Part shown: positions 24,748-38,752 of the stretch, one piece after another
Position numbering within the stretch: position 1 is the first letter of the stretch
Layout of the letters: each line of letters opens with the position of its first letter
Assembly: GCA_965207015.1 (NCBI GenBank)
Contig: OZ242257.1
Span: 461,253-525,252, forward strand
Source: Nitrospirales bacterium
GTDB taxonomy: Bacteria; Nitrospirota; Nitrospiria; Nitrospirales; UBA8639
Reading direction: 5' to 3'
DNA: 64,000 nt
The notes under the pieces: generated by a model
Database searches by the model: none
Told to the model about the DNA's origin: nothing
What the model saw: the letters and a program-made list of their open reading frames with translations, nothing else
Made by a program: the position numbers and the translations under genes

Positions 24748-25035
24748 ATGATTACATTTAGTTGGGATCAGGACAAAGCGAAGTCCAATCTCAGGAAGCA
24801 TGGGATTTCTTTCGAGGAAGCCCGATCTGTCTTCTACGACGAGTTCGCAAGACAATTCTATGATGAGAGTGCCGTTGTCGAAGACAGGTTCATTCTACTT
24901 GGCATGAGCAATCAAGCCCGTGTTCTGGTCGTCGTACATGGTGAGCGAGGGAAAGATGGTGAAGAACTTCGTATTATTTCAGCACGGAAGGCCACAAAGA
25001 AAGAACAGCAGCACTACCGAGGTGATGTGTCATGA
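24748..25035 (+). CDS. brnT: BrnT family toxin
   Basis: Colinear by eye with the BrnT pattern (F.WD..KA..N..KHG.SF.EA..VF ... RIISARKATKKE). Confidence 0.8.
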   Translation: MITFSWDQDKAKSNLRKHGISFEEARSVFYDEFARQFYDESAVVEDRFILLGMSNQARVLVVVHGERGKDGEELRIISARKATKKEQQHYRGDVS

Positions 25036-25250
25036 AAAGAGAGTATGATTTTTCCAAAATGAAATCTCGTAAGAACCCTTACGTGTCCAAGTTGAAAAAA
25101 CCGGTAACGATCCGTCTCAGCGAGGACGTGATTGCGTATTTCAAGGAAATGGCTGAGGCGTCGGGGATGCCCTATCAGAGTTTAATCAACCTGTATCTGC
25201 GCGATTGTGTACAGGGACGCCGGAAGGTCGATATCCAGTGGCAGCTTTGA
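25032..25250 (+). CDS. brnA: BrnA antitoxin (ribbon-helix-helix)
   Basis: 4-nt overlap with brnT. VTIRL...A...GMPYQSLIN motif. Confidence 0.75.
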   Translation: MKREYDFSKMKSRKNPYVSKLKKPVTIRLSEDVIAYFKEMAEASGMPYQSLINLYLRDCVQGRRKVDIQWQL

Positions 25251-27011: not shown

Positions 27012-27302
27012 CTATCCCAACATCGCAGCCGGTTGGACACCGACGGTCAGCCGGTGCTTCTCTCCGGCCAGCTTCCGAAAATCACACTCGACTTGGATGC
27101 CGTGCCAGAATTGCTCTGACTGGCCGAAGAAGGCGCCGAAGCGAATCGACATGGCAGGCGTGATCGACCGGCGGCCATGCACGATTTCATTGATCGCACG
27201 CGGGGCCACACCGATGGCGCGCGCCATGGCGTTCTGCGAAATCCCCATGGGCTTGAGGTATTCCTCAAGCAAAATCTCGCCGGGTGTGATGGGCGTGTCC
27301 AT
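27012..27302 (-). CDS. higA: HigA family antitoxin (XRE HTH)
   Basis: [29 protein letters not shown] signature. Confidence 0.85.
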
Positions 27303-27334
27303 ATCCGTATCCTATAACGTTATAGGGATATTTT

Positions 27335-27613
27335 TCAATGATAATCCGTGATGGCCACCTGTTCTGGCCCGGAATCCGTCCACCTGAAGACGATGCGCCA
27401 TTGGTCGTTGATGCGAATGGAATGAAAGCCCGAAAGCCTCCCGCTCAGAGCTTCAAGCCGGTTGCCGGGTGGCACGGCCAGGTCGCCAAGAGTACCGGCT
27501 TGATTCATCTGAATCAGTTTTCGTAACGCAACTCGTGATAGCACGGCAAACCGCCGGTTGCGTTCCGACCTGAACAGTTCTTCCGTATCCCTATCCGCAA
27601 AGGATTGGATCAT
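27335..27613 (-). CDS. higB: HigB / plasmid-maintenance killer toxin (RelE/ParE superfamily)
   Basis: [14 protein letters not shown]...[11 protein letters not shown]...[14 protein letters not shown]...ITDYH. The toxin gene lies upstream of the antitoxin, as in higBA. Confidence 0.85.
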
Positions 27614-27962: not shown

Positions 27963-28718
27963 TTACTCAAGCATCTCGTCATCTGTGAAAATCAGCAGCG
28001 TGAGAATCTCGTCGTTGCCTGGAATGTAACGCGACTCTTCATAAATTTCGTAGTTCTCTGCACCTCTGCGGTCAAACCAAATATCCGCACTAATCGGTAT
28101 ACGGTCGCTACATTCAGCCTCGTCCATAGCATAACGGGTTGGGTCGAGATCGTTGCGGGGAAACCACCGGTCTGGAATATAGTGCGATCGATAGAACCAT
28201 TTTCGGTTCCTTACGGTGTGACAGAGCAGGATAGCAGGCTCAGGTCCATACTCTATCAACCGAAGAGCGGTCGCAGTGATGCTAGTCTGGAATTCCGTCC
28301 GCAGGGTTTCCACGGCCTGAAAGGAGACTTTGCCAATTTCAAGCGCCATCGGTTCAAAGAGGTATTCAGGCATCAGGAGATCAGCAGCGTAACCATCAGC
28401 GATGCGTTCCGGGTCCGGAAAACTTTTCTTCGGGTTATTAATGTCATCTGATAAGCAGATCAAGGAGCGTCCTCGATCGTAATGCCAGTGACCCAACTCG
28501 TGTGCTGCCGAAAATCTCCGCCTAGCGGAAGTCGCTTGGCTATTGACCGTGATTACTGCGCGGTTGTTTGAACCAATAATACGGCCTTCGCAGCCGTTGA
28601 GCGGGCGATACTTAATGGTTGCTCCGACATGATAAGCGATTGCTTCAATGTCAATGTCCTTGGCAGCTGTGACACTAAGCTCTTTGAGGAGTTTTTCCGC
28701 TGGTGAAAGTTGATTCAC
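27963..28718 (-). CDS. ImmA/IrrE family (DUF955) zinc metallopeptidase
   Basis: HEXXH in RRFSAAHELGHWHYD and downstream ERIADGYAADLLMPEY. A C-terminal domain of about 110 aa of unknown role follows. Confidence 0.85.
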   Translation of the reverse strand: MNQLSPAEKLLKELSVTAAKDIDIEAIAYHVGATIKYRPLNGCEGRIIGSNNRAVITVNSQATSARRRFSAAHELGHWHYDRGRSLICLSDDINNPKKSFPDPERIADGYAADLLMPEYLFEPMALEIGKVSFQAVETLRTEFQTSITATALRLIEYGPEPAILLCHTVRNRKWFYRSHYIPDRWFPRNDLDPTRYAMDEAECSDRIPISADIWFDRRGAENYEIYEESRYIPGNDEILTLLIFTDDEMLE

Positions 28719-29152
28719 TTTACGTTGCCCTCGTCATCAATCATGCCAAGGTCAATGAGATCTTCAATAAAGCTGTCCATATCTGCTTCGGAGTCTTTCT
28801 CTTGACGCGCGGCAAGGGTTAACTTTTGTTTTAGTGTGTCGTTGTTCTGCGCGAAGTGCTGGATTAGCTGGTGTTTGCGACTCAACGGCCAGTACAATAC
28901 CTTATTCCCATGACCGGTTTGGTGCATCTCAGCTTCATAACCAGCACGCGCTGTTTCCATTTTCTGGCGGCCAAACTTTGCAATGGCATCAGCAATTAGC
29001 CCTCTCGTCCGCTTGGCAATCGCATCGGTGTCTTCGCCAGCTTCTTGCAGTTCGGCCATTAGTTCTTTATCACTCATGGCGTCTACATCGTCGGCCAATG
29101 CGTTGCAAAGTCGCTCCAACTTTTCAATTGCCTCATTCTGATTCTTATTCAT
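28715..29152 (-). CDS. acidic, predicted all-helical hypothetical protein (candidate partner/anti-sigma)
   Basis: 145-aa ORF. It overlaps the upstream gene by 8 nt and the downstream gene by 4 nt. No HTH or known motif is recognised. Confidence 0.6.
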   Translation of the reverse strand: MNKNQNEAIEKLERLCNALADDVDAMSDKELMAELQEAGEDTDAIAKRTRGLIADAIAKFGRQKMETARAGYEAEMHQTGHGNKVLYWPLSRKHQLIQHFAQNNDTLKQKLTLAARQEKDSEADMDSFIEDLIDLGMIDDEGNVK

Positions 29153-29726
29153 GGGTCAGGCCTTTCGGAAATTCGCGTAGAAGCTTGCGTTGCACGCGCT
29201 TTCGCGCTGCTGCGTACTCTTTCTCGCTCATGGACTCCATTTCACGGATTTCGTGCGGAGTCCAATCTTCCATAATGCCGATCACAATCGCCTGGGCCTT
29301 AGGGTCTTCGCTGAACATCGCCTCGATTCCGGCAAGTGCCTTGCCATAGTCGAGATGTCCTACGACAACCTCTTCCAGCGACATTGCCGGGTCAGGTGCG
29401 TTGACAATGGGATCGTCTCCATCACCCTCGCTAGAATTGCTGGGTGTTTCCCGCTTCCACTTCTCACGTGCATGGGAAGCAATGCTCTTCATCACGTTGC
29501 ACAAGAAAGTCGCTAGCTTCACGTCACGGGGGCAGTTACGGCCACCGTTCTCTTCAAGGGAACGCATCACAGCTTCCTGCAGGAGGTCGTTTGGTTCCAT
29601 GCCGGTGCCTGGTGCTAAGAAAGATGCCTCTTTCTGGAGGCGTGTCAGATCGGTCGGTTGCAAAGCCTCAAGCGCCGACCGCATCTCGGCAGGAGAGAGC
29701 ACTTCACGCTGTGGAATGGCTTCCAC
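29145..29726 (-). CDS. ECF sigma-70-like protein (regions 2 and 4 recognisable)
   Basis: DLLQEAVMRSLE...TFLCNVMKSIASHAREK resembles sigma region 2. TPHEIREMESMSEKEYAAARKRVQRKLLREF resembles the region 4 HTH. Confidence 0.5.
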   Translation of the reverse strand: MEAIPQREVLSPAEMRSALEALQPTDLTRLQKEASFLAPGTGMEPNDLLQEAVMRSLEENGGRNCPRDVKLATFLCNVMKSIASHAREKWKRETPSNSSEGDGDDPIVNAPDPAMSLEEVVVGHLDYGKALAGIEAMFSEDPKAQAIVIGIMEDWTPHEIREMESMSEKEYAAARKRVQRKLLREFPKGLTHE

Positions 29727-30036
29727 CGATTCAAAATCCTCCTTTCAACTCTTTAGGCCGAATTCAACGGGCCTTCCGGACAATTTTCTGAAATTTTTCT
29801 GGATTCTTGTGTCCGAGACGGCGGCTTTCGGCGGCCTAAGGTAATAGAGGCACAAGTCTCGGCCATTATTGAGTCCCAAATTGGGGAAGCGGCAGCGTAC
29901 CACCTGATAGGGATGAAGCGTAACACACATAAACGGCCATCTGGAAGTCCAAGAGTCGAGACATGCCTCTTTCTTTATCTTTTGAAAGCATATCGTTAAC
30001 CGGAAACCCTTTGGGGCCATTTTTAAGGAGGAAGCA

Positions 30037-30783
30037 ATGCCAGAAGTAACTGAAAGAAATGAGGTCGAAGATTTGGAGGAATGCGCGCGTGAGGATCGCA
30101 CACCGCGAGTCGGACATTGGTTTCGGGTGCGGATCAATGACAATAGATTCGTCGTCACCGATCCCGTTATTACGGGGCGACAGCTTCTCGACGAAGCTGG
30201 GAATCGGCCGGTCGAAGATTTTTTAATCTTTCTGAAACTGCGCAATGGGCTGCTGGAGGAGATCAGGCTTGACGAAACCGTTGATCTACGAAAGCTAGGC
30301 GTAGAGAGGTTCCTGGTGTTCAAGAGCGACCGGAGCTTCCGTTTCGAGTTGGATGGTCGGCGATTCGAATGGGGGGCGACCCTTATTACTGGGCGAACGC
30401 TGAAGAACCTTGCGGATGTGGACTTGGAAAGGTATGGGGTCTGGCGTGAAGTCCGTGGTGGCGAGGACCTCCCTATTGGTGACGATGAGTTTGTCGATCT
30501 CAGCGAGGAAGGGTTAGAGCGATTCTTCACGGCATCCCACCCTACCGCCACATTCGAGATCATCGTGAACGCACGTCCGCATACGGTAACAGGTCGGAAG
30601 GTGACCTTCGAACAGGTGGTAGAGTTGGCGTTTCCCAACTATCAACCAAATCCAAACATCGTGTTTTCGATGACCTATCGCCACGCCGCTTCTAAACCTC
30701 ATGCTGGCGAGCTTGGTGCTGGGGGTGTCGTCGAAGTGGACAATGGAACCGTTTTCAATGTCTCAAGAACTGATAAGTCGTAG
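30037..30783 (+). CDS. multiubiquitin-type protein with three tandem beta-grasp repeats
   Basis: AAGGAGG SD 7 nt upstream. Three internal repeats of about 70 aa (about nt 30118-30336, 30337-30540 and 30550-30780) share the F.[VFI].[IL][ND]...F/H.[VW]...ITGR..L pattern. Confidence 0.75.
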   Translation: MPEVTERNEVEDLEECAREDRTPRVGHWFRVRINDNRFVVTDPVITGRQLLDEAGNRPVEDFLIFLKLRNGLLEEIRLDETVDLRKLGVERFLVFKSDRSFRFELDGRRFEWGATLITGRTLKNLADVDLERYGVWREVRGGEDLPIGDDEFVDLSEEGLERFFTASHPTATFEIIVNARPHTVTGRKVTFEQVVELAFPNYQPNPNIVFSMTYRHAASKPHAGELGAGGVVEVDNGTVFNVSRTDKS

Positions 30784-31936
30784 TCCCGATTTGAAGCGTC
30801 TTCGTGATGAAGGATACTTCGTGCAGATACGAGGAGGTCTCCTCATCATGCGCGGAGTGCCCTACGTCAATGCGCTACGGCAGGTGCAGGAGGGAGTGCT
30901 GATCTCCAGCCTCACGCTCGCCGGCGACATCACCTCGCGACCGGACACGCATGTCGTCCACTTCGACGGCGACTACCCTTGTGGAGCAGATGGTACGCCT
31001 ATCCAGCAGATTATGAATCAAAGTGGAGACTTCGACCTTGGTAATGGCGTAACAGCAAAACACATGTTCTCAAGCAAGCCTAGTGAGGGATACCCCGACT
31101 ATTACCAAAAGATGACCACCTATGCCAATATCCTTTCAGGGCCTGCAACGACTTTGAAGCCCGGGGTCACCGCACGGATATTCCGCAATCCTGAAGACGA
31201 GGAAGATAGCATCTTCAGGTACGCAGAGACCGCATCCGATCGAGTGGGTATCGGCAGGCTAACTGAGCGGTTGGCAGAAGAAAAAATGGCTATCGTTGGC
31301 CTTGGCGGTACTGGGTCTTACGTGCTTGACCTCGTGGCCAAGACGCCGGTCCGAGAGATTCGACTTTTTGACGGCGATGAATTCTTGCAGCATAACGCCT
31401 TCCGTTCGCCGGGCGCTCCGTCCATTGAAGAACTGCGCGATGCACCGATGAAAGTCAATTACCTAAAGAATATTTATTCAAGAATGCACAGCAAAATCAT
31501 CGCCCATCCCGCTCCTATTGACGCAAGTAACGTCAACCTGCTGGACGGTATCACTTTCTCCTTCATATGCATGGACGGAAATGAAACCAAACGACTCGTC
31601 GTCGAAAAGCTTGAGGCTCTTAACGTGCCCTTCGTCGATACTGGTATGGGTCTCAACCTGAGTGACGACTCGTTGGGCGGTATTTTGAGGGTCACCGCGA
31701 GCACGCCAGCGAAGCGCGACCACATTCAGCGCCGCATATCTTTCGCTGTCGACGGGCAGGATGACATCTACGCGTCAAACATTCAGGTCGCCGATCTGAA
31801 CGCGCTGAATGCGGCAATGGCCGTCATCAAGTGGAAGAAAATTCGGGGTTTCTACCGAGATGATGATGGTGAGCATCATAGCACCTACACGATCGACGGC
31901 AACATGCTGCTGAATTGTGATTGCCGACAGCAATGA
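30758..31936 (+). CDS. E2-like N-terminal domain fused to a ThiF/MoeB/E1-type adenylyltransferase
   Basis: GLGGTGS nucleotide loop (31298-31318) and ThiF-like core. The N-terminal domain of about 190 aa has HVVHFDGDYPCG (Cys codon 30980-30982). The start is ambiguous (30743 or 30758), and both overlap the upstream gene. Confidence 0.8.
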   Translation: MSQELISRSPDLKRLRDEGYFVQIRGGLLIMRGVPYVNALRQVQEGVLISSLTLAGDITSRPDTHVVHFDGDYPCGADGTPIQQIMNQSGDFDLGNGVTAKHMFSSKPSEGYPDYYQKMTTYANILSGPATTLKPGVTARIFRNPEDEEDSIFRYAETASDRVGIGRLTERLAEEKMAIVGLGGTGSYVLDLVAKTPVREIRLFDGDEFLQHNAFRSPGAPSIEELRDAPMKVNYLKNIYSRMHSKIIAHPAPIDASNVNLLDGITFSFICMDGNETKRLVVEKLEALNVPFVDTGMGLNLSDDSLGGILRVTASTPAKRDHIQRRISFAVDGQDDIYASNIQVADLNALNAAMAVIKWKKIRGFYRDDDGEHHSTYTIDGNMLLNCDCRQQ

Positions 31937-32373
31937 TGCGATATTCTTATCTCAAACATCAGTTCGTACGGCACATTCCGCGTGACCTCGATCCAGGGGT
32001 GCTCTACATTTCAGTGGAATACGGTACAGCCGCACATAGTTGCTGTTGCGGGTGCGGTGAAGAAATCGTAACACCCTTTACACCAACCGACTGGGAAATG
32101 ACGTTCAATGGCGAGACGATTTCGTTATGGCCGTCGGTTGGCAACTGGAATCTAGCTTGTCGCTCCCACTACGTGATACAGCGCGGACAGGTGATCAAGG
32201 CCACGCCATGGAGCGATAGGCAAATCGTAGCGGGGCGTAGAAGGGACAAAGCGGCAAAGGCTCGCTACTTCGGCACAGGGGAGGTGCCTGCGGAAGCTGG
32301 ACGTGTGTTAACTCGCCCGGGAACTAGAGGCTTATGGTCTATGATCTTGCGCTGGATCTCCAAATCCAATTAA
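31933..32373 (+). CDS. Cys-rich DUF6527-like protein
   Basis: ATGA overlap with the E1 stop. AAHSCCCGCGEE (32041-32055) plus LACRSHY, a probable Zn site. The pattern matches my recollection of DUF6527 proteins next to ThiF/multiubiquitin genes. Confidence 0.6.
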   Translation: MMRYSYLKHQFVRHIPRDLDPGVLYISVEYGTAAHSCCCGCGEEIVTPFTPTDWEMTFNGETISLWPSVGNWNLACRSHYVIQRGQVIKATPWSDRQIVAGRRRDKAAKARYFGTGEVPAEAGRVLTRPGTRGLWSMILRWISKSN

Positions 32374-32393: not shown

Positions 32394-34142
32394 TTAATCC
32401 CTTTTCTTTTCTCCTCTCGCTGGCTCTTCACTGTCCAGCACCAACGCCTCATGCAACATCGACTCAATCAATCGACCCCGCGCCTCGTCACCTGTGACAA
32501 GACTCGCCTCCAGCCGGTTACATAGGGTCATGAGTTCATCGACTTTGGCGACGATGCGGTGCTGTTCGGCGAGTGGGGGGAGATGAATAGAGAGTGGATA
32601 AATATCCTTATTGTTTATCTGAGGAACGGAAGTCCCAGAATTTAGCTTCCACAAATCCAGGTTGCTGAACCACAACTCCAAAAACGGAAGGAGATCGTTC
32701 ACAAATGGCTTCATAGCCATGATATTACTGTCGCAAACAATATTTACATGCAACCTGCGTTTTCGATTCGTTGCAATAGCCCCGCCCCTTTTTGGAAAAA
32801 CAATGCTTCCACTTTCGATCACGGCATCTTTCAGATCGTGACCAACAAATCTTGAGGATGTAACTATACCTTTATCGTTCTCAGTCAAGCTCAAATCCGA
32901 AACTTTCAAATATGGAAGGTCTCCAACAGCCTGCTCTTCACCGTGCTTAAGAGCTATACCGCTTCTCAGGTAGGCTATCTGGGAGATTGAGGTTTTGCTC
33001 CAATTTTGTGGCAACTGACGTGCAAATTTTTCATTCAAACCCCTGACAGTTGATTTTGCGCGGGGTATTTCCCCCGTCTTTACTAGCCGATCTTTCTCCG
33101 CCGCGATTCGCTTCAACAGCTCCGATGCTGGTTCGTCGTTCGGGTCTTGTGGGACGAGCTTGCCGCGTACGGCGAGGTTGAGGATGGTCTGGCGCAATGC
33201 TTTGATTTGGTCTGGGCGGGTGGTGAGCGGGGTGAGGTTGTTGAGAGCGAAGCGTGCGTGGTTCTGAAATGTCGCCGGGTCCGGGTCGGGTTCGTTGAGA
33301 CGGGCGAGGCTCGCTGTCGCCATCCGGTCGCGTGTCGCCTCTCGTTTCGCTCGCGTTTCCTCTAGTTGTTCGCAGAGGGCCATGAATTCGTCGACTTTGG
33401 CGACGATGCGGTGTTGTTCGGCGAGCGGAGGGAGGGGGATCAATGACTCATATAACTGATGGGCTTTAACATTTTGCACCGTCATCTTAGCTGTCTCGTC
33501 TTTCCACTTCTCGATGCGAGTATTGACGCCAAAGAGCAGCCATACGGAAAGCAAATCATTTGAGGCAGGAGTGATTCGAGCTATTCGTTGATTCAGGAGT
33601 GCTGTAGGTCCCTCCCATATGGCGCACTTGATTGAACCACTCAACCCGACAAGGATATCGCCACGATTTACCACGAAGGCTAGATCATACGGTCCCCTGA
33701 GAAAAACCGTTGGTGTGTTCGTTCCGATATCGCCTATCTTGATAAGTGGATACCCCGTGTTCGGGTCATTTGAGAAATTTCCTGAGGAAAAAGCAAAGCC
33801 TTGCACGATGATTGCGCTTGATCCGAGACGTATCCACTCCCAGTTGTGTGGAGTGTCGAAGGGGATTTCATCGAGTGCGATTTCAGGAAGAAGTTTTTCC
33901 TTTTTGATTTCCCCCGCCGCCATTTTCCGCTTTTTTTCTGCCGCAATCCGTTTCAACAACTCCGAGGCCGGTTCGTCGTTTGAGTCTTGTGAGACGAGCT
34001 TGCCGCGGACGGCGAGGTCGAGAATGAAACGGCGCAGGCGAGGGATGGCGTTGGGCGTGTCGGCGATGCGGTCGAAGTGTGTGAGGAGGTGTTCGACGGG
34101 AGCTGGATTCCCGCTTTCGCGGAAATGACAGTTGGGCTTCAC
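32394..34142 (-). CDS. hsdS: type I restriction-modification specificity subunit
   Basis: Two target-recognition halves separated by duplicated conserved helices (LPPLAEQHRIVAKVDEFMALCEQLE and LPPLAEQHRIVAKVDELMTLCNRLE). GTGA overlap with hsdM. Confidence 0.9.
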   Translation of the reverse strand: MKPNCHFRESGNPAPVEHLLTHFDRIADTPNAIPRLRRFILDLAVRGKLVSQDSNDEPASELLKRIAAEKKRKMAAGEIKKEKLLPEIALDEIPFDTPHNWEWIRLGSSAIIVQGFAFSSGNFSNDPNTGYPLIKIGDIGTNTPTVFLRGPYDLAFVVNRGDILVGLSGSIKCAIWEGPTALLNQRIARITPASNDLLSVWLLFGVNTRIEKWKDETAKMTVQNVKAHQLYESLIPLPPLAEQHRIVAKVDEFMALCEQLEETRAKREATRDRMATASLARLNEPDPDPATFQNHARFALNNLTPLTTRPDQIKALRQTILNLAVRGKLVPQDPNDEPASELLKRIAAEKDRLVKTGEIPRAKSTVRGLNEKFARQLPQNWSKTSISQIAYLRSGIALKHGEEQAVGDLPYLKVSDLSLTENDKGIVTSSRFVGHDLKDAVIESGSIVFPKRGGAIATNRKRRLHVNIVCDSNIMAMKPFVNDLLPFLELWFSNLDLWKLNSGTSVPQINNKDIYPLSIHLPPLAEQHRIVAKVDELMTLCNRLEASLVTGDEARGRLIESMLHEALVLDSEEPARGEKKRD

Positions 34143-35596
34143 CGGATCAACGCCTCCGCCAGGATCTTCTTCAATTGGTCGCGCAGGTCGGCGGTTTCGG
34201 CTTCGGTCTTGCTCAGCTTTGCCAGCAATTCCTGCGGGTCACCGTGGTTGTCTTCGGCGGTATGTGGGTTTTTGATGTCGAGGTTGTAGCCGCGTGCCTT
34301 GATCTCTTCAGCAGTCACCTTCCAGGCGCGGTCAGTTTCCTTGCGGCCTTTGCGGTCTGCGCCGCCCCACCAGTCGATGCAGGGTTGCAGGTGTTCCAGT
34401 TTGATGGGTTTGGTCATGGAATAGGCTTTCTGGCCTTCGGGGACGCGGTGTTCGTAGAACCAGATATCTTTGGTCGCTTCGCCTTTCTCGAAGAACAGCA
34501 GGTTGGTGCCGATGGAGGCGTAGGGCCTGAACACGGAGTTGGGCAGGCGGACGATGGTGTGCAAGTTGCACTCCTCCATGAGATGTTCCTTGAGCCGCGT
34601 CTTGACGCCTTCGCCGAACAGCGAGCCGTCTGGCAGGACGACCGCGGCGCGCCCTCCCGGCTTCAACAGCCGGACGATCAGGGCAAGGAACAGGTCTGCG
34701 GTCTCCCTGGTACGGAAGTGCTGGGGGAAGTTGGTCTCGATGCCGTCTTCTTCCTTGCCGCCAAAGGGCGGGTTGGTCAGCACAACGTCCACCCGGTCCT
34801 TCTTCTCCCAACCGATGTAGGGCTTTGCCAAGGTGTTGTCGTGGCGTACGAAGCCTGGGTCCTCGATGCCGTGCAACAGCATATTGGTGACGCATAGCAT
34901 GTGCGGCAGTTGTTTTTTCTCAACGGCGCGCAGTGCGGCTTGCATTTTCCGTTCGTCTGAGGGCCGCTTGACGTAGCGGTCGCGCATGTGGCGTATCGAA
35001 CAGGTCAGGAAGCCGCCCGTGCCGCAGGCGGGATCGAACAGAGTTTCACCGGGCTTGGGATCGATGCGGTCGGCCATGAAGGCGGTGACGGCGCGCGGCG
35101 TGTAGTATTCGCCCGCGTTTCCTGCGGATTGCAGGTCGTTGAGGATTTGTTCATAGATGTCGCCGAAGTGCTGGCGCTCGGTGAGGTTGTTGAAGTCGAT
35201 GCCGTTGATCTTGTTGACCACCTGGCGCATCAATTGGCCGGACTTCATGTAGTTATTGGCGTCCTCGAACACGTCGCGCACCACGCGGCCTCGGTCTTCC
35301 GCATGGCTGGTCGTCCGGAGATCCTTCAGGGCCGGGAACAGGTCGTTGTTGATGAAGGTGAGCAATGCTTCACCGGTGATGCCCTCGGGGTCGGCTGCCC
35401 AGGCGCGCCACCGGAAGCGCGCCGGGATCGGGGAGGCATAGTCCGACTTCATCAGTTCTAGTTCCTGATCCTGATCGTCGATGATTTTGAGGAAGAACAT
35501 CCAGCACAACTGGCTGATGCGCTGGGCGTCGCCGTCCACGCCGGAGTCCTGGCGCATGATATCCTGAACGGATTTGACGAGAGTGCGGACGGACAC
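34139..35596 (-). CDS. hsdM: type I R-M N6-adenine DNA methyltransferase subunit
   Basis: LTNPPFGGK (motif IV) and DPACGTGGFL (motif I). Confidence 0.95.
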   Translation of the reverse strand: MSVRTLVKSVQDIMRQDSGVDGDAQRISQLCWMFFLKIIDDQDQELELMKSDYASPIPARFRWRAWAADPEGITGEALLTFINNDLFPALKDLRTTSHAEDRGRVVRDVFEDANNYMKSGQLMRQVVNKINGIDFNNLTERQHFGDIYEQILNDLQSAGNAGEYYTPRAVTAFMADRIDPKPGETLFDPACGTGGFLTCSIRHMRDRYVKRPSDERKMQAALRAVEKKQLPHMLCVTNMLLHGIEDPGFVRHDNTLAKPYIGWEKKDRVDVVLTNPPFGGKEEDGIETNFPQHFRTRETADLFLALIVRLLKPGGRAAVVLPDGSLFGEGVKTRLKEHLMEECNLHTIVRLPNSVFRPYASIGTNLLFFEKGEATKDIWFYEHRVPEGQKAYSMTKPIKLEHLQPCIDWWGGADRKGRKETDRAWKVTAEEIKARGYNLDIKNPHTAEDNHGDPQELLAKLSKTEAETADLRDQLKKILAEALIR

Positions 35597-35599
35597 GGG

Positions 35600-38032
35600 C
35601 TACGCGGTCTCCTGATAGAGCGCGGCTTGCAGGTCGCGGACTGCGGCAACGAATTTGTCCTTGCCGCCGAAGGCGTTGATCAACTGCACCGGGGTGCCGA
35701 GTTCGGTCAACGGCGGGATGCGCAGTACGCTGACGTCATCCAAGTTGAACATTCCCTCGTCGGCGTATTTGACAAGCAGGGCGTCGAGCACGGCGCGGGC
35801 CTGTTCTCCGTATTTGTTGAACACATCGCGTTTCTTGACGTTCGCGGCGCGCTCGCGGCGGGTGAGCGGCTTGGCGTCAAAGGCGACATGGCAGATGAGA
35901 TCGAAGGGGTCGAGATCCCTGCCAAGCTCTTGGGCGATGGCGTCGAGAGGCAGATCCGCGTCCTCCAATTCTTCGACAATCGCCTGCTTGCGCTCTGCCG
36001 CTCCCCAGCGCCGGAGGAAATCGTCGAGGCTGGCGAAGCGCTTTTTCAGAGCCTTCTTGGTGAAGTCGCGCAAGGACTCGGTGACGAGCTTGCCGTACTC
36101 GTCCAGAAATTCCACCCGCTCACCTATGACTGTGGCCTCGATACCATCCACGTACACTTTGCGCGGACTATCACGAGGGTACGGCGGGGGAGGGTCATCG
36201 ATAATGGTTTCATCCTCCCCAGGTTCCGCCGGAATGGGATCGTCGTCATCGTCTTGAGGTGGCACGTCGTCAGGCGGCACGATGGAATCGCCTCCACCCG
36301 GTTCGTAAGTCTGTACCGGTTCACCGTCGAAATCCGGGTCGGCGAAGTGATTGGTCGCGCCGCGAAAATCCATCAGGGTGAAGTAAAGTTTGTGTGTGTC
36401 GTCGTGTACGCGGGTGCCACGTCCGAGTATCTGCTTGAACTCGGTCATGGATCCGACTTCACGGTCGAGCACGATCAGCCTGCACGTTTGCACATCGACA
36501 CCCGTGGACAGCAGCCGCGAGGTAGTGACCAGCACGGGGTATCTGGATTCCGGGTCGATGAAGTTGCCCAACTCCGCTTGGCCTTCGGGGTCGTCGCCGG
36601 TGATGCGCATCACGTAGCGATGGTTTTGGTCCACCAAGTCGGCGTTCTGGTTGACGAGCGTCTGCCGCATGCGCGTGGCGTGTTCTTGGTCGACGCAGAA
36701 GATGATTGTCTTGTTGAAGCGACCGCCGCTTTCCTTCAGGAATTCCGTCACCTTTTCGGCGACGACTTTGGTCCGGCCGTCCAGCACTAGGTTACGATCG
36801 AAGTCCTTGGTGTTGTAGATGCGGTCTTCGACTTCCTTGCCGCTCCGGTCGCGTTGGCCTTTCTCCGGCCGGTAGCCTGCTACGTCGCGGTCGATATGGA
36901 CCTTGATGACTTTGTAGGGGGCGAGGAAGCCGTCCCTGATTCCCTGTTTCAGGGAGTAGGAGTAGACCGGCTCGCCGAAGTAATGGATGTTGGACACGTA
37001 GCGAGTTTCCTTGGGCGTGGCGGTGAGACCGATCTGCGTGGCTGTGGTGAAATATTCCAGGATTTCCCGCCAAGCTGAGTCGTCGGCGGCACTGCCGCGA
37101 TGACACTCGTCGATCACGATGAGGTCGAAGAAGGTGCGTGAAAATTCGCGGAATATTTTTTGACGTTCTTCTGGTCCAGTGATCGCTTGGTACAGGCTGA
37201 GATAGACCTCGTACGCTTTATCGATACGCCCGACGGTGGCAGGCGAGTCCTCTGAGGAACCGTCGTCGCGTTCGATGGTTCCCGCTCTGGTCGAAAGTTT
37301 GGTCATAGCCGGACCAAAGGGCCGGAAGTCGTTGACCATGGTTTGGTCCACCAGCACGTTGCGGTCAGCCAGGAACAGGATTCGTTTTTTGCGCCCTGCC
37401 TTCCACAGTCGCCAGATGATCTGAAAGGCTGTGTAGGTTTTGCCGGTTCCCGTCGCCATGACAAGCAGAATGCGGTTGCGTCCTTTGGCGATGGCTTCGA
37501 TGGCGGCGTTGATGGCATTGACCTGATAGTAGCGCGGGGTTTTGCCGCTGCCATCGTCAAAATAATCCTGAAGGACGATTGCCTCTTCTTCGGAGGTTAG
37601 GCCTTTCCACGCGCAATAGCGTGCCCACAGGTCTTTTGGCGAGGGGAAGGAATCGTTATCGAGCGTGGTTTCTTTTTCAACGCCGGTGCCGCTCCGGTCA
37701 TGGAAGACGAACCCATCACCGTTGGAGGAGAAGACGAAGGGCACCTGCAACGTTTCGGCATAGTCGAAGGCCTGTTGCATGCCGTCGCCGATGGCATGAG
37801 TATTGTCTTTGGCTTCGATCACCGCAATGGGGACGTTGGGCTTGTAACAGAGGATGTAGTCGGCCCGCTTGGCCTTGCCCCTGCTGACCAACTTCCCGCG
37901 CACGATGATGCGGCCCTTGGTGAAACTGACCTCCTCGCGGATTTGCGTCATCTCGTCCCAGCCTGCCTTGCGAAGGGCGGGCGTGATGAACTTGGTGCAG
38001 ATGTCGCGCTCGCTCAGGTCTTTCTTATTCAT
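35600..38032 (-). CDS. hsdR: type I restriction endonuclease subunit (EcoAI/EcoEI-like, probably family IB)
   Basis: Nuclease N-terminus (ADYIL...IEAKD), MATGTGKTYTAFQ, VIDECHRGS (DEAH), and a C-terminal EcoEI-R-like tail, 810 aa. Confidence 0.95.
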   Translation of the reverse strand: MNKKDLSERDICTKFITPALRKAGWDEMTQIREEVSFTKGRIIVRGKLVSRGKAKRADYILCYKPNVPIAVIEAKDNTHAIGDGMQQAFDYAETLQVPFVFSSNGDGFVFHDRSGTGVEKETTLDNDSFPSPKDLWARYCAWKGLTSEEEAIVLQDYFDDGSGKTPRYYQVNAINAAIEAIAKGRNRILLVMATGTGKTYTAFQIIWRLWKAGRKKRILFLADRNVLVDQTMVNDFRPFGPAMTKLSTRAGTIERDDGSSEDSPATVGRIDKAYEVYLSLYQAITGPEERQKIFREFSRTFFDLIVIDECHRGSAADDSAWREILEYFTTATQIGLTATPKETRYVSNIHYFGEPVYSYSLKQGIRDGFLAPYKVIKVHIDRDVAGYRPEKGQRDRSGKEVEDRIYNTKDFDRNLVLDGRTKVVAEKVTEFLKESGGRFNKTIIFCVDQEHATRMRQTLVNQNADLVDQNHRYVMRITGDDPEGQAELGNFIDPESRYPVLVTTSRLLSTGVDVQTCRLIVLDREVGSMTEFKQILGRGTRVHDDTHKLYFTLMDFRGATNHFADPDFDGEPVQTYEPGGGDSIVPPDDVPPQDDDDDPIPAEPGEDETIIDDPPPPYPRDSPRKVYVDGIEATVIGERVEFLDEYGKLVTESLRDFTKKALKKRFASLDDFLRRWGAAERKQAIVEELEDADLPLDAIAQELGRDLDPFDLICHVAFDAKPLTRRERAANVKKRDVFNKYGEQARAVLDALLVKYADEGMFNLDDVSVLRIPPLTELGTPVQLINAFGGKDKFVAAVRDLQAALYQETA

Positions 38033-38138
38033 AAGCGCATGATTTTATATGTTGCGTTGAAGTTGCACAATGTGCGGTATGGAGCCGCCTGACTTTACAT
38101 CCTTACTCCGGCTTTTTCCTGGTGGAGGAGGAGTGAAG

Positions 38139-38161
38139 CGCCATGAGATGGCGCGGCTACG
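38139..38161 (-). repeat. inverted copy of the 23-nt head of the 153-bp repeat (right edge of island)
   Basis: The reverse complement, TAGCCGCGCCATCTCATGGCGCT, is identical to 27624-27646. Confidence 0.8.
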
Positions 38162-38177
38162 ATAGGAAAGGAAAAGG

Positions 38178-38215
38178 CAAAGACGCTGGATCCCTGATCA
38201 GATCGGGGATGACAG
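38178..38215. repeat. REP-A copy (inverted)
   Basis: CAAAGACGCTGGATCCCTGATCAGATCGGGGATGACAG. Confidence 0.85.
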
Positions 38216-38244
38216 AAGGGGAGAGGGTGGTTTTATTTAGTTCG

Positions 38245-38526
38245 TTACTCGATACTCTTCAATTTTCCCGTTACGAATTTGTGGAGGGTGCTGGAGATGA
38301 GGGTTTGGTAGGGCATCCCTTCCTTTGCCGCTTTTTTTTGCAGACTGTTCAAATCGCGTGACGAGATCCGAATGTTGATTCGCTTGTCCTTTTGAAGGAA
38401 CTCGTGGGCCGCCTCTTCCAGTTGACGCTTCGCTTCTTTGAAATTGTTGATACTGGTCAGTTCCCCCCGTTCAAAGTCCTGGAGGATCTTCATCTCTTCC
38501 CTGTCTAATTTGAGAGCGTTCTTCAT
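38245..38526 (-). CDS. ribbon-helix-helix (BrnA/CopG-like) antitoxin, apparently orphan
   Basis: AAGGAG SD 8 nt before the internal Met. RINIRISSRDLNSLQKKAAKEGMPYQTLIS matches the RHH 'PYQ[ST]LI' pattern. No intact toxin ORF lies upstream. Confidence 0.6.
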   Translation of the reverse strand: MKNALKLDREEMKILQDFERGELTSINNFKEAKRQLEEAAHEFLQKDKRINIRISSRDLNSLQKKAAKEGMPYQTLISSTLHKFVTGKLKSIE

Positions 38527-38644
38527 TTGAGGTACTCCTTTGTCGGTTCCATTCTGAATATGAAAGAGGATGGCTTGAATCTCATGTTGTGTGCCTTTTG
38601 TCAACGCCAATGTCGTCATAACTACGAGATTCCTCGCTACGCTC

Positions 38645-38752
38645 GGAATGACAAATGACGCTGGATCCCCGATCAGGTCGGGGATGACAGACAAGAAACA
38701 AAGGCAAAGACAAAGACACTGGATTCCCGATTAAGGATGTCGGGAATGACAG
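38645..38752. repeat. two REP-A copies (inverted)
   Basis: CTGGATCCCCGATCAGGTCGGGGATGACAG and CTGGATTCCCGATTAAGGATGTCGGGAATGACAG. Confidence 0.85.

What the first reader, a model, noticed from the sequence alone, without database searches (positions are those of the whole stretch)
30037..32373. JAB-less three-gene ubiquitin-like conjugation cassette: triple beta-grasp 'multiubiquitin', an E2-like/E1 fusion and a Cys-rich DUF6527-like protein
Seen in the sequence:
- ORF 30037-30783 has a strong AAGGAGG SD. It contains three internal repeats of about 70 aa (WFRVRINDNRFVVTDPVITGRQLL / FRFELDGRRFEWGATLITGRTLK / FEIIVNARPHTVTGRKVTFEQVV), with the strand-strand-helix spacing of ubiquitin-like beta-grasp folds.
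- The next ORF overlaps it. It carries the GLGGTGS nucleotide loop of ThiF/MoeB/E1 adenylyltransferases behind a domain of about 190 aa containing HVVHFDGDYPCG (candidate catalytic Cys, codon 30980-30982).
- The third ORF starts in an ATGA overlap and has a CCCGC...C-x2-H cluster.

Established knowledge:
- Multiubiquitin + ThiF/E1 + prokaryotic-E2 (+JAB) neighbourhoods were predicted computationally by Iyer, Burroughs and Aravind.
- The E2-then-E1 fusion order is that of CBASS Cap2.
- Bil operons are experimentally antiphage, CBASS Cap2/Cap3 tune antiphage signalling, and Bub operons are biochemically shown Ubl-conjugation pathways.

Inference: this is a minimal variant with no JAB or other deconjugase and no recognisable effector. 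It sits between an ImmA-protease operon and a type I R-M system. It is probably a defence or stress module whose substrate, target and third component are unknown. I know of no experimental work on this architecture.
Basis: partly seen in the sequence, partly recalled or inferred. Interest (0 to 1): 0.9.

Follow-up and report, generated by a model that had tools for sequence, protein, structure and literature searches.

The report
Type II Bub ubiquitin-like conjugation operon
The three genes are a standard Type II "Bub" bacterial ubiquitin-like conjugation operon, a family already described and partly reconstituted in vitro; the only fresh angle is its unusual sigma-factor-based, DNA-damage-type regulator next door.

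Summary
Three overlapping genes at 30037-32373 encode a triple beta-grasp Multi_ubiq protein, a DUF6791+ThiF fusion and a DUF6527 protein.

This is a Type II Bub operon (formerly "6E.2/DUF6527"): BubA, the BubBD E2-E1 fusion and BubE. Ye, Gong, Chambers and Corbett defined and studied it biochemically (bioRxiv 10.1101/2024.11.21.623953).
- The window's BubA aligns end to end with the crystallised E. coli ZDHYS365 BubA.
- BubBD reaches the NCBIfam equivalog cutoff.
- The order BubA-BubBD-BubE is kept in 80 of 80 genome loci from many phyla.

- The proposed catalytic Cys is replaced in 31% of family representatives. The published residues are conserved instead: E2 Ser105/Lys107/His65, E1 Tyr338 and adenylation Arg216.
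- The cassette does have a deconjugase, because BubE is a zinc-finger Ser-His peptidase.

The upstream "ImmA operon" is a CapP peptidase with a diverged ECF-like sigma factor and a 145-aa protein without a helix-turn-helix. Two divergent promoter-like motifs (TGTCCG-N17-GGCCTA) flank the intergenic region, and the same module sits beside CBASS operons elsewhere. The target and biological role of Bub remain unknown.

This is a new member of a known kind, of low interest.

The parts
30037..30783 (+). bubA: ubiquitin-like protein with three beta-grasp (Multi_ubiq) domains (Ubl3). The C-terminal residue is Ser248 (codon 30778-30780). The Ca2+ site-1 equivalents are D98 (30328-30330) and E161 (30517-30519).
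   Evidence: Pfam PF14452, three stretches, E 2.1e-59. Full-length match to PDB 9cd2, E. coli ZDHYS365 BubA, E 2.6e-44, with both proteins ending in TDKS. The C-terminal residue is Ser in 79 of 80 orthologues.
30025..30031 (+). Shine-Dalgarno AAGGAGG of bubA
   Evidence: Read directly from the sequence.
30758..31936 (+). bubBD: E2-like (DUF6791) plus E1 (ThiF) fusion of 392 aa. Key codons are His65 30950-30952, Ser105 31070-31072 (E2 nucleophile), Lys107 31076-31078, Arg216 31403-31405 (adenylation) and Tyr338 31769-31771 (E1 crossover-loop nucleophile).
   Evidence: Pfam DUF6791 E 9e-60 and ThiF E 6e-10. NCBIfam NF004802 scores 675.7 bits against a cutoff of 601. Residues were mapped onto E. 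coli ZDHYS365 BubBD. Conservation was measured in 144 representatives. The E1 part of the model matches MccB, TcdA, UBA5, MoeB and Citrobacter BubCD by Foldseek.
31933..32373 (+). bubE: DUF6527 Zn-finger serine peptidase, the deconjugase. The Zn ligands are Cys37, Cys39, Cys41 and Cys76 (32041-32055 and 32158-32160). The catalytic dyad is Ser68 (32134-32136) and His79 (32167-32169). The C-terminal tail LWSMILRWI is hydrophobic.
   Evidence: Pfam PF20137 E 4.6e-24. Alignment to Citrobacter and E. coli BubE. These residues are at least 97% conserved in 80 sequences. The function comes from Ye et al..
29810..29841 (+). Promoter-like bipartite motif TGTCCG-N17-GGCCTAAGG pointing at bubA, which would leave a leader of about 195 nt.
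   Evidence: There are only two matches in the 64-kb window, against 0.17 expected. The motif is conserved in the same position upstream of Bub or CBASS operons in L082 and L084-L089. No sigma-70 consensus promoter is found in this intergenic region.
29751..29782 (-). The second copy of the same motif (TGTCCG-N17-GGCCTAAAG), pointing at the sigma-like gene. It would give autoregulation.
   Evidence: Spacing within each arm is fixed, while the distance between the two arms varies from 17 to 28 nt among loci.
29145..29726 (-). Diverged ECF-type sigma-70-family protein of 193 aa, the first gene of the regulator operon.
   Evidence: NCBIfam TIGR02937 E 0.0057. Pfam Sigma70_r2 is hit weakly by 4 of 30 homologues. 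The AlphaFold2 model has pLDDT 76. Its top Foldseek PDB hits are almost all sigma factors, mostly ECF (SigL, SigH, RpoE, SigW, AlgU), with prob up to 0.94 and E 0.03-1.
28715..29152 (-). A 145-aa all-helical acidic protein with no helix-turn-helix. It is the candidate CapP substrate and anti-sigma factor. LTLAAR is invariant and the C-terminal helix is conserved.
   Evidence: No Pfam, NCBIfam or PADLOC family above threshold. The family has 63 detected members. See the alignment. A weak LEM/HeH-like hit occurs in 22 of 30 members. It always lies between the sigma-like gene and capP. Its gene overlaps both neighbours.
27963..28718 (-). capP: ssDNA-activated ImmA/IrrE-type metallopeptidase with HELGH at residues 73-77.
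   Evidence: PADLOC capP E 1e-61 over the full length. Pfam Peptidase_M78 E 1.6e-12. HELGH was read.

Best explanation
[quoted passage not shown] A divergently transcribed sigma-like / 145-aa protein / CapP module very probably controls its expression.

**Mechanism by homology to the characterised E. coli ZDHYS365 and Citrobacter systems**
1. The BubBD dimer adenylates the C-terminal carboxylate of BubA. Here that residue is Ser248, not Gly.
2. Activated BubA is captured as an oxyester on Tyr338 in the E1 crossover loop.
3. BubA is passed to Ser105 of the N-terminal E2-like domain, assisted by Lys107 and His65.
4. BubA is then transferred to lysines of still unknown targets.
5. BubE, a C4 zinc-finger peptidase with a Ser68/His79 dyad, cleaves the conjugates and restrains the pathway.
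6. The Ubl3-type BubA retains the Ca2+-site residues used for dimer and filament formation.

**Regulation (inferred)**
1. DNA damage or phage infection produces ssDNA, which activates CapP.
2. CapP cleaves the 145-aa protein, which acts as an anti-sigma factor.
3. The freed ECF-like sigma factor drives two divergent TGTCCG-N17-GGCCTA promoters. One serves its own operon and one serves bubA-bubBD-bubE.

**What is shown and what is inferred**
- Shown here: identity, architecture, synteny, conservation of the catalytic residues and the promoter-like motifs.
- Shown in the literature for homologues: the conjugation chemistry, BubE peptidase activity and Ubl3 filaments.
- Inferred: the regulatory cascade and any antiphage or stress role.
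For: **Domain identity**
- Three Multi_ubiq stretches, DUF6791+ThiF and DUF6527.
- The NCBIfam equivalog NF004802 scores 675.7 bits against a 601 cutoff.
- BubA aligns over its full length to PDB 9cd2, the Type II BubA used in the published assays (E 2.6e-44).

**Family definition and mechanism from the literature**
-.

**Catalytic residues**
- Window S105, K107, R216 and Y338 correspond to E. coli S106, K108, R219 and Y342.
- In 144 representatives, H65 and R216 are conserved in 144, and S105 is S in 140 and C in 4. Y338 is Y in 142, and the other two carry the Tyr one aligned position earlier. K107 is conserved in 127.
- The BubE Zn cysteines and Ser/His dyad are conserved.

**Synteny and fold**
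- BubA lies upstream in 80 of 80 loci. BubE lies downstream in 79 of 80, and the one exception is cut by a contig end.
- The E1 fold matches by Foldseek include Citrobacter BubCD 9eav_B.
- The Ca-site residues D98 and E161 are conserved.

**Regulator**
- PADLOC capP E 1e-61.
- The sigma fold is supported.
- The same three-gene regulator module lies next to Bub operons (L052, L085-L089) and CBASS operons (L082-L084).
- The divergent motifs are described, and no sigma-70 consensus promoter lies in that region.
- The literature reports that 31% of Bub operons carry CapH+CapP, and that 24 CBASS systems have capH and capP alongside a sigma-70-family sigma factor.
Against: - The UBC/E2 fold of the N-terminal domain could not be confirmed here. 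The AlphaFold2 model was poor (pLDDT below 50 for residues 1-165). Profile searches found no solved E2, not even Citrobacter BubB. The E2 assignment therefore rests on the published AF3 models and mutants of a homologue about 38% identical.
- The residue mapping used a machine-read supplementary table with obvious reading errors.
- No Bub operon has yet been shown to protect against phage, so the biological role is open.
- The anti-sigma role of the 145-aa protein is purely positional. It has no detectable similarity to CapH or to known anti-sigma factors.
- The Foldseek E-values for the sigma-like model are weak (0.03-1).
- The C-terminal Ser of BubA differs from the Gly of Type I BubA, and its chemistry has not been discussed explicitly in the literature I could read.
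Confidence: 0.85

Rival explanations
1. This is a previously unstudied minimal thioester-type cascade whose E2 domain uses the Cys in HVVHFDGDYPCG as its catalytic residue, and which lacks any deconjugase.
For: The Cys is invariant among the 80 closest genome orthologues. It lies 10 residues after an invariant His, a spacing reminiscent of the HPN...Cys spacing of UBC enzymes (my own recollection, not tested). It is also present in E. coli ZDHYS365 BubBD.
Against: The residue is Cys in only 99 of 144 representatives, with H, S, Y, R or F in the others. A 91%-identical homologue has His there. The published S106A mutant, equivalent to window S105, abolishes conjugate formation. Position 105 tolerates only Ser or Cys. 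BubE is a demonstrated peptidase that removes conjugates.
Confidence: 0.03
2. The cassette has the same Bub identity, but the 145-aa protein is a DNA-binding repressor: a CapH analogue that uses a helix-extension-helix (LEM/SAP-like) motif instead of a helix-turn-helix. The TGTCCG/GGCCTA elements are its operators. The sigma-like protein plays an auxiliary role or none.
For: In canonical CapH+CapP, the gene next to capP encodes the cleaved repressor. A weak LEM-like hit at residues 22-52 occurs in 22 of 30 family members. The motif copies form an inverted arrangement.
Against: Spacing within each arm is fixed, while the distance between arms varies from 17 to 28 nt. Each arm points at a gene start. 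This fits two promoters better than one dimer-bound palindrome. The two hexamers of an arm are not palindromic to each other. No sigma-70 promoter that a repressor could occlude is detectable. A sigma-family gene always heads the regulator operon. The LEM hit is below Pfam's cutoff.
Confidence: 0.25
3. The ThiF-domain protein and beta-grasp protein form a sulfur-carrier or cofactor/peptide-modification system of the ThiF/ThiS, MoeB/MoaD or MccB type, rather than a protein-conjugation system.
For: The adenylation domain matches ThiF, MoeB, TcdA and MccB by profile and by fold. Beta-grasp proteins also serve as sulfur carriers (established knowledge).
Against: The best matches are to the dedicated PRK06153/BubBD equivalog, not to ThiF or MoeB models, which score far below their cutoffs. 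No thiamine or molybdopterin genes lie nearby. Homologues form ATP-dependent protein conjugates. The operon includes a peptidase and defence-type regulators.
Confidence: 0.02

Closest known systems
Type II Bub operon (6E.2 / DUF6527 family), for example E. coli ZDHYS365 BubA-BubBD-BubE (Ye, Gong, Chambers, Corbett; bioRxiv 10.1101/2024.11.21.623953)
   Same: - The three genes and their order are the same, and there is no JAB peptidase.
- BubA is a three-domain Ubl3 with the same TDKS C-terminus as the crystallised E. coli protein.
- The E2 Ser/Lys/His, the E1 Tyr and the adenylation Arg are conserved.
- The BubE C4 Zn site and Ser-His dyad are conserved.
- A CapP-type regulator is nearby.
   Different: - Identity to ZDHYS365 BubBD is only about 38%, though it is 62% to another E. 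coli BubBD.
- The regulator is a sigma-like protein, a 145-aa protein and CapP, rather than the HTH repressor CapH with CapP.
- The host is an uncultured bacterium with about 57% GC.
Type I Bub operon (Citrobacter BubAB, BubCD, BubE)
   Same: It uses the same oxyester chemistry (E1 Tyr, E2 Ser), the same BubE peptidase and a Ubl3 that forms Ca2+-dependent filaments.
   Different: - Type I fuses the Ubl to the E2, and a JAB peptidase to the E1.
- Its Ubl is released by cleavage after a C-terminal Gly.
- In the window there is no JAB, the E2 is fused to the E1, and BubA is made with a free C-terminal Ser.
Type II CBASS Cap2/Cap3
   Same: It has the same E2-then-E1 fusion order, and both are associated with CapP-type regulators in defence islands.
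   Different: - Cap2 uses catalytic cysteines, conjugates a CD-NTase rather than a Ubl, and is paired with the JAB peptidase Cap3.
- The window's protein matches PADLOC E1-E2 models only weakly, and mostly only over a stretch of about 50 residues around the nucleotide-binding loop (E 6e-7 at best).
CapH+CapP (and Deinococcus DdrO/IrrE) DNA-damage switches
   Same: The peptidase is a CapP over its full length (PADLOC E 1e-61). It is encoded divergently upstream of an immune operon.
   Different: The partner protein lacks the helix-turn-helix of CapH and DdrO, and an ECF-like sigma gene precedes it. Lau et al. noted 24 CBASS systems in which capH and capP sit alongside a sigma-70-family sigma factor, and I found no study of that arrangement.

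Membership tests
Type II Bub operon | A Ubl (BubA) with 1-3 beta-grasp / Multi_ubiq domains | tested here: met
   Pfam PF14452, three stretches, E 2.1e-59. Full-length match to the PDB 9cd2 ZDHYS365 BubA, E 2.6e-44.
Type II Bub operon | A single E2-E1 fusion protein (BubBD) with DUF6791 followed by a ThiF adenylation domain | tested here: met
   DUF6791 E 9e-60 and ThiF E 6e-10. NCBIfam NF004802 scores 675.7 bits against a 601 cutoff. The E1 part matches by Foldseek, including Citrobacter BubCD.
Type II Bub operon | The N-terminal domain of BubBD has a (diverged) UBC/E2 fold | tested here: inconclusive
   The AlphaFold2 model has pLDDT below 50 for residues 1-165. Its helix, three strands, then long helix order is compatible with a UBC-like core but is not reliable. 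hhalign against Citrobacter BubB gave probability 1%. A profile search of PDB found nothing. The assignment rests on the published AF3 models.
Type II Bub operon | A DUF6527 protein (BubE) encoded downstream, and no JAB/JAMM peptidase | tested here: met
   PF20137 E 4.6e-24. No JAB hit in any of the six proteins. BubE lies downstream in 79 of 80 orthologous loci.
Type II Bub operon | Oxyester catalytic set: an invariant E2 Ser with Lys and His, an invariant Tyr in the E1 crossover loop, an adenylation Arg, and no conserved catalytic Cys | tested here: met
   S105, K107, H65, Y338 and R216 are present and map to E. coli S106, K108, Y342 and R219. Conservation in 144 representatives was measured, and Cys75 is Cys in only 99 of 144.
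Type II Bub operon | BubE C4 zinc finger and Ser-His dyad | tested here: met
   C37, C39, C41 and C76 with S68 and H79 align to Citrobacter C57, C59, C61 and C99 with S92 and H102. They are at least 97% conserved in 80 sequences.
Type II Bub operon | ATP-dependent covalent conjugation of BubA and its reversal by BubE | not testable with these tools
   This needs biochemistry. It has been shown only for E. coli ZDHYS365 and Citrobacter homologues.
Ubl3 filament-forming Ubls (Gong et al., bioRxiv 10.1101/2024.11.21.623966) | Conserved acidic residues of intra-dimer Ca2+ site 1 (E. coli D73 and E136) | tested here: met
   Window D98 and E161 align to them (allowing for the 2-residue offset of the PDB chain). 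Both are at least 97% conserved. The residues are named.
Type II CBASS Cap2/Cap3 | A CD-NTase substrate gene, a Cys-dependent E2-E1 (Cap2) and a JAB peptidase (Cap3) | tested here: not met
   No SMODS/CD-NTase or JAB gene lies in the neighbourhood. PADLOC E1-E2 matches are weak, and most cover only a stretch of about 50 residues around the nucleotide-binding loop.
Bil (BilABCD) | [quoted passage not shown] | tested here: not met
   There is a single adenylation domain fused to the E2-like domain, and no JAB.
CapH+CapP regulator | A CapP metallopeptidase with HExxH | tested here: met
   PADLOC capP E 1e-61 over 8-241 of 242 positions. HELGH lies at residues 73-77.
CapH+CapP regulator | A partner that is a helix-turn-helix repressor (CapH) | tested here: not met
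   The 145-aa partner has no HTH or other family hit in Pfam, NCBIfam or PADLOC. A profile search of PDB at E up to 10 returned only three unrelated chains and no CapH structure.
ECF (group 4) sigma-70 family | Sigma-2 and sigma-4 domains | tested here: inconclusive
   Sequence hits are weak: TIGR02937 E 0.0057 and Sigma70_r2 in 4 of 30 homologues. A profile search of PDB found nothing. The AlphaFold2 model has pLDDT 76, and its top Foldseek hits are nearly all sigma factors, but with E 0.03-1 and low TM scores.

The most novel reading that the evidence does not exclude
The sigma-like / 145-aa / CapP genes form an uncharacterised three-component DNA-damage switch. In it, the ssDNA-activated CapP peptidase destroys a new type of anti-sigma factor, not a repressor. 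This frees a dedicated ECF-like sigma factor that reads the two divergent TGTCCG-N17-GGCCTA promoters, one for itself and one for the neighbouring immune operon. The module would be portable, since it sits in front of both Bub and CBASS operons. A smaller point is that Type II BubA is activated at an invariant C-terminal serine rather than glycine.
Probability: 0.4. Interest if true: 0.5.

Novelty: new member of a known kind. Interest (0 to 1): 0.22.

Why it matters
The cassette itself adds little. It is one more Type II Bub operon, from a family with hundreds of catalogued and thousands of detectable members, and its chemistry has already been worked out.

What remains open for the whole family is the target of BubA and the biological role, since no phage protection has been shown.

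This locus gives a usable handle on when the operon is switched on. A CapP-linked, sigma-factor-type regulator with recognisable promoters could be used to induce native Bub expression and look for substrates. [quoted passage not shown]

Tried and rejected
**Attempts that gave nothing useful**
1. An AlphaFold2 model of BubBD from a 16-sequence alignment had pLDDT 46, and the E2 domain was unusable. Only the E1 part gave meaningful Foldseek hits.
2. hhalign of the DUF6791 domain profile against Citrobacter BubB gave probability 1%. An hmmsearch of that profile against PDB found no E2. Sequence methods therefore cannot link the domain to UBC.
3. phmmer of BubBD against PDB found no hit.
4. Profile searches of PDB with the sigma-like and 145-aa families found nothing meaningful.
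5. I could not identify the source genome. Exact look-ups showed that three of the five proteins tried (BubA, the 145-aa protein and CapP) sit on a 2.35-Mb NCBI/ENA contig, but no record could be retrieved. The window has no rRNA.
6. A Pfam census of ORFs upstream of bubA in the genome loci found Peptidase_M78 in 3 of the 119 ORFs scanned and Sigma70_r4 in one. My crude ORF picking probably missed regulators.
7. A viral-contig scan found one relative, so the operon is not typically phage-borne, although the scan was limited by its search patterns.

**Considered and rejected**
- CBASS, Bil, or a ThiS/MoaD-type sulfur-carrier system (see the membership tests).
- A functional link to the type I R-M system. 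None of the 80 orthologous loci has a detectable relative of its genes.


Full report
**1.

The ORF list and direct reading of the junctions confirm three co-directional, overlapping genes.
- The first gene (30037-30783, 248 aa) follows an AAGGAGG Shine-Dalgarno sequence. It contains three Pfam Multi_ubiq stretches (PF14452, E 2.1e-59).
- The second gene carries DUF6791 (E 9e-60) followed by ThiF with GLGGTGS.
- The start of the second gene is best placed at the ATG at 30758, not 30701. The NCBIfam model begins at residue 20 of the longer ORF and homologues are 390-392 aa.
- That start gives a 26-nt overlap with the first gene, which is also seen in orthologous loci.
- The third gene starts in the ATGA overlap at 31933 and matches DUF6527/PF20137 (E 4.6e-24).

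**2. What it is**

The literature held in the library names this architecture precisely.
- Ye, Gong, Chambers and Corbett (bioRxiv 10.1101/2024.11.21.623953) renamed the "6E/DUF6527" operons of Burroughs, Iyer and Aravind as Bub.

The window matches this definition point by point.
- BubA aligns end to end with PDB 9cd2, the E. coli ZDHYS365 BubA used in their assays and crystallised in the companion paper (E 2.6e-44; both end in TDKS).
- BubBD reaches the NCBIfam equivalog NF004802 at 675.7 bits against a cutoff of 601.
- A precomputed annotation source already labels PF20137 "BubE".
- RefSeq names an E. coli orthologue "ubiquitination-like system serine protease family protein".

**3. Family size and synteny**

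- BubBD has at least 8000 close relatives in the protein database; that figure is the scoring cap. The top 120 are at least 70% identical and span Verrucomicrobiota, Myxococcota, Planctomycetota and Alpha- and Gammaproteobacteria.
- It has 2026 cluster representatives at E up to 0.001.
- In 80 genome loci, every one has BubA immediately upstream. BubE lies immediately downstream in 79, and the exception is cut by a contig end.
- None of the 80 loci has a detectable relative of the window's HsdM, HsdS or HsdR. Only one (L052) has the sigma-like / 145-aa / CapP module.
- Only one relative was found on viral contigs.

**4. Catalytic residues**

The paper reports that Bub works through oxyester intermediates.
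- The intermediates form on a Tyr in the E1 crossover loop and a Ser in the E2 domain. In Type II the Ser is accompanied by Lys and His.
- In E. coli BubBD, S106A, R219A and Y342F abolish conjugate formation, while a K108 mutant does not.

I aligned the window protein to the ZDHYS365 sequence from the machine-read Table S2.
- The table has a few reading errors that shift numbering by 1-2 residues.
- Window S105, K107, R216 and Y338 correspond to E. coli S106, K108, R219 and Y342.

Conservation in 144 representatives at 40-64% identity:

| Residue | Conservation |
|---|---|
| H65 | 144 of 144 |
| R216 | 144 of 144 |
| Y338 | 142, plus 2 that carry the Tyr one aligned position earlier |
| S105 | Ser in 140, Cys in 4 |
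| K107 | 127 of 144 |

- The Ser/Cys pattern at position 105 is what one expects of a nucleophile.
- A 91%-identical metagenomic homologue has His at position 75.
- Cys75 is invariant only within the closest clade. It sits next to an invariant Pro in the loop that carries His65, so it is probably structural.

**5. BubE**

- By alignment with the Citrobacter and E. coli proteins, the window protein has the C4 zinc ligands C37, C39, C41 and C76. These correspond to Citrobacter C57, C59, C61 and C99.
- It also has the dyad S68/H79, corresponding to S92/H102. All are at least 97% conserved in 80 sequences.
- It has the hydrophobic terminal extension described for the family.
- The paper shows that BubE cleaves peptide and isopeptide bonds and erases BubA conjugates in cells. 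The cassette is therefore not without a deconjugase.

**6. BubA details**

- The C-terminal residue is Ser in 79 of 80 orthologues, in the pattern T-[RK]-T-[VD]-[QK]-S. It is also Ser in both E. coli proteins.
- Type I BubA ends in Gly after JAB processing. My text searches found no discussion of the Type II terminal Ser.
- The residues that coordinate the intra-dimer Ca2+ in E. coli Ubl3 (D73, E136) correspond to window D98 and E161, both conserved.
- Ca2+-dependent dimer or filament formation is therefore plausible here.

**7. What could not be shown**

- The UBC-like fold of the N-terminal domain was not confirmed.
- The only alignment I was allowed to submit was shallow, and the model was poor (pLDDT 46; below 50 across residues 1-165).
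- Profile methods do not connect DUF6791 to any solved E2.
- The E1 part does match E1-like enzymes, including Citrobacter BubCD.

**8. The neighbourhood**

Upstream on the other strand lies a translationally coupled operon of three genes.
- **Sigma-like protein (193 aa).** It has weak sigma-70/ECF profile hits. Its AlphaFold2 model has pLDDT 76. The top Foldseek hits are almost all sigma factors, mostly ECF, though with weak E-values.
- **145-aa helical acidic protein.** It has no family assignment and no HTH.
- **CapP peptidase.** It is full length (PADLOC E 1e-61) with HELGH.

How this compares with known regulators:
- CapH+CapP is a known ssDNA-triggered switch, found next to 31% of Bub operons.
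- Lau et al. noted 24 CBASS systems with a sigma-70-family sigma factor beside capH and capP, and my searches found no study of that arrangement.
- The same three-gene regulator module precedes Type II Bub operons in L052 and L085-L089, and CBASS operons in L082-L084. It is therefore a portable regulator.

The intergenic region contains two divergent copies of TGTCCG-N17-GGCCTA(A/T)(A/G)G.
- They are the only two matches in 64 kb, against 0.17 expected.
- One points at the sigma-like gene and one at bubA.
- The pair recurs in the other loci that carry the regulator module. Spacing within an arm is fixed, while the distance between arms varies from 17 to 28 nt.
- No sigma-70 consensus promoter lies in this region.

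My inference is that these are autoregulated promoters read by the sigma-like protein, and that the 145-aa protein is the CapP-cleaved anti-sigma factor.
- Its invariant LTLAAR followed by a conserved amphipathic helix loosely recalls the CapH cleavage site before its CapP-docking helix.
- No sequence similarity supports that parallel, so the resemblance is only a lead.
- The main alternative is that the 145-aa protein is a non-HTH DNA-binding repressor.

**9. Wider context**

- The segment from about 27 to 38.7 kb includes several windows with lower GC (51-53% at 28-34 kb) than the flanks, which are mostly 55-62%.
- It also holds HigB/HigA, a type I R-M system and a CopG-like gene. BrnT/BrnA lies beyond der.
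- Related metagenomic contigs keep the der and M20-peptidase flank but carry a different Bub variant (a one-domain Ubl) and an S8 peptidase.
- This marks a variable defence island.

**10. Verdict**

- The finding is a correct domain-level reading of a system that is already named, catalogued and biochemically characterised.
- The claims of novelty, the catalytic Cys and the missing deconjugase do not hold.
- The locus is a new member of a known kind.
- The one thread worth following is the sigma-based CapP regulator and its promoters.

Noticed in passing
window 29751-29782 (-) and 29810-29841 (+); also L082, L084-L089: Two divergent copies of TGTCCG-N17-GGCCTA(A/T)(A/G)G lie between the sigma-like gene and bubA. 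The same pair occurs upstream of CBASS and Bub operons that carry the same three-gene regulator module. Spacing within an arm is fixed, while the distance between arms varies. They are likely promoters for the sigma-like protein.
   Followed up: partly
window 28715-29152 (-): A 145-aa protein family (63 detected members, no Pfam domain) always lies between the sigma-like gene and capP. LTLAAR is invariant and the C-terminal helix DSFIEDLIDLG is conserved. A sub-threshold LEM/helix-extension-helix hit falls at residues 22-52. It may be a CapP-cleaved anti-sigma factor.
   Followed up: partly
window 30758-30783; loci L002-L081: Type II BubA ends in an invariant Ser (79 of 80), not the Gly usual for ubiquitin-like proteins. 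The last 26 nt of bubA overlap the start of bubBD in nearly all orthologous loci.
   Followed up: partly
proteins P0196, P0225, P0289, P0320 (BubBD representatives): Four of 144 BubBD representatives carry Cys instead of the catalytic Ser (window position 105) while keeping the crossover-loop Tyr. They may be natural thioester-using variants of the E2 step.
   Followed up: no
window 24748-25250, 27012-27613, 32394-38694; L085-L087: The operon sits in a variable defence island next to der. The island holds BrnT/BrnA, HigB/HigA, a type I R-M system (hsdS, hsdM, hsdR) and a CopG-like gene, with GC of 51-53% at 28-34 kb. Related contigs keep the der and M20-peptidase flank but carry a one-domain-Ubl Bub operon and an S8 peptidase instead.
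   Followed up: partly
L082-L084: In other genomes the same three-gene regulator module and its CBASS operon are inserted between hsdM and hsdS of a type I R-M system, together with small toxin-antitoxin genes.
   Followed up: no
proteins P0334, P0123, P0400 (one 2.70-Mb contig): One metagenomic contig appears to encode a sigma-like protein 99% identical to the window's but a 145-aa protein only 83% identical. This hints at recombination inside the regulator module. The link rests on matching contig lengths only.
   Followed up: no
L001 (E. coli ES2, NZ_CM184352.1 4056730-4059090): An E. coli Type II Bub operon (BubBD 62% identical to the window's) lies in an island between an IS1 element and a tyrosine integrase next to tRNA-Leu. 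No CapP-type regulator is annotated there.
   Followed up: no
window 29745-30638 (-): A 297-aa TTG-start ORF runs antisense to bubA. It is Ser/Arg-rich and looks like a by-product of the coding strand, not a gene.
   Followed up: no
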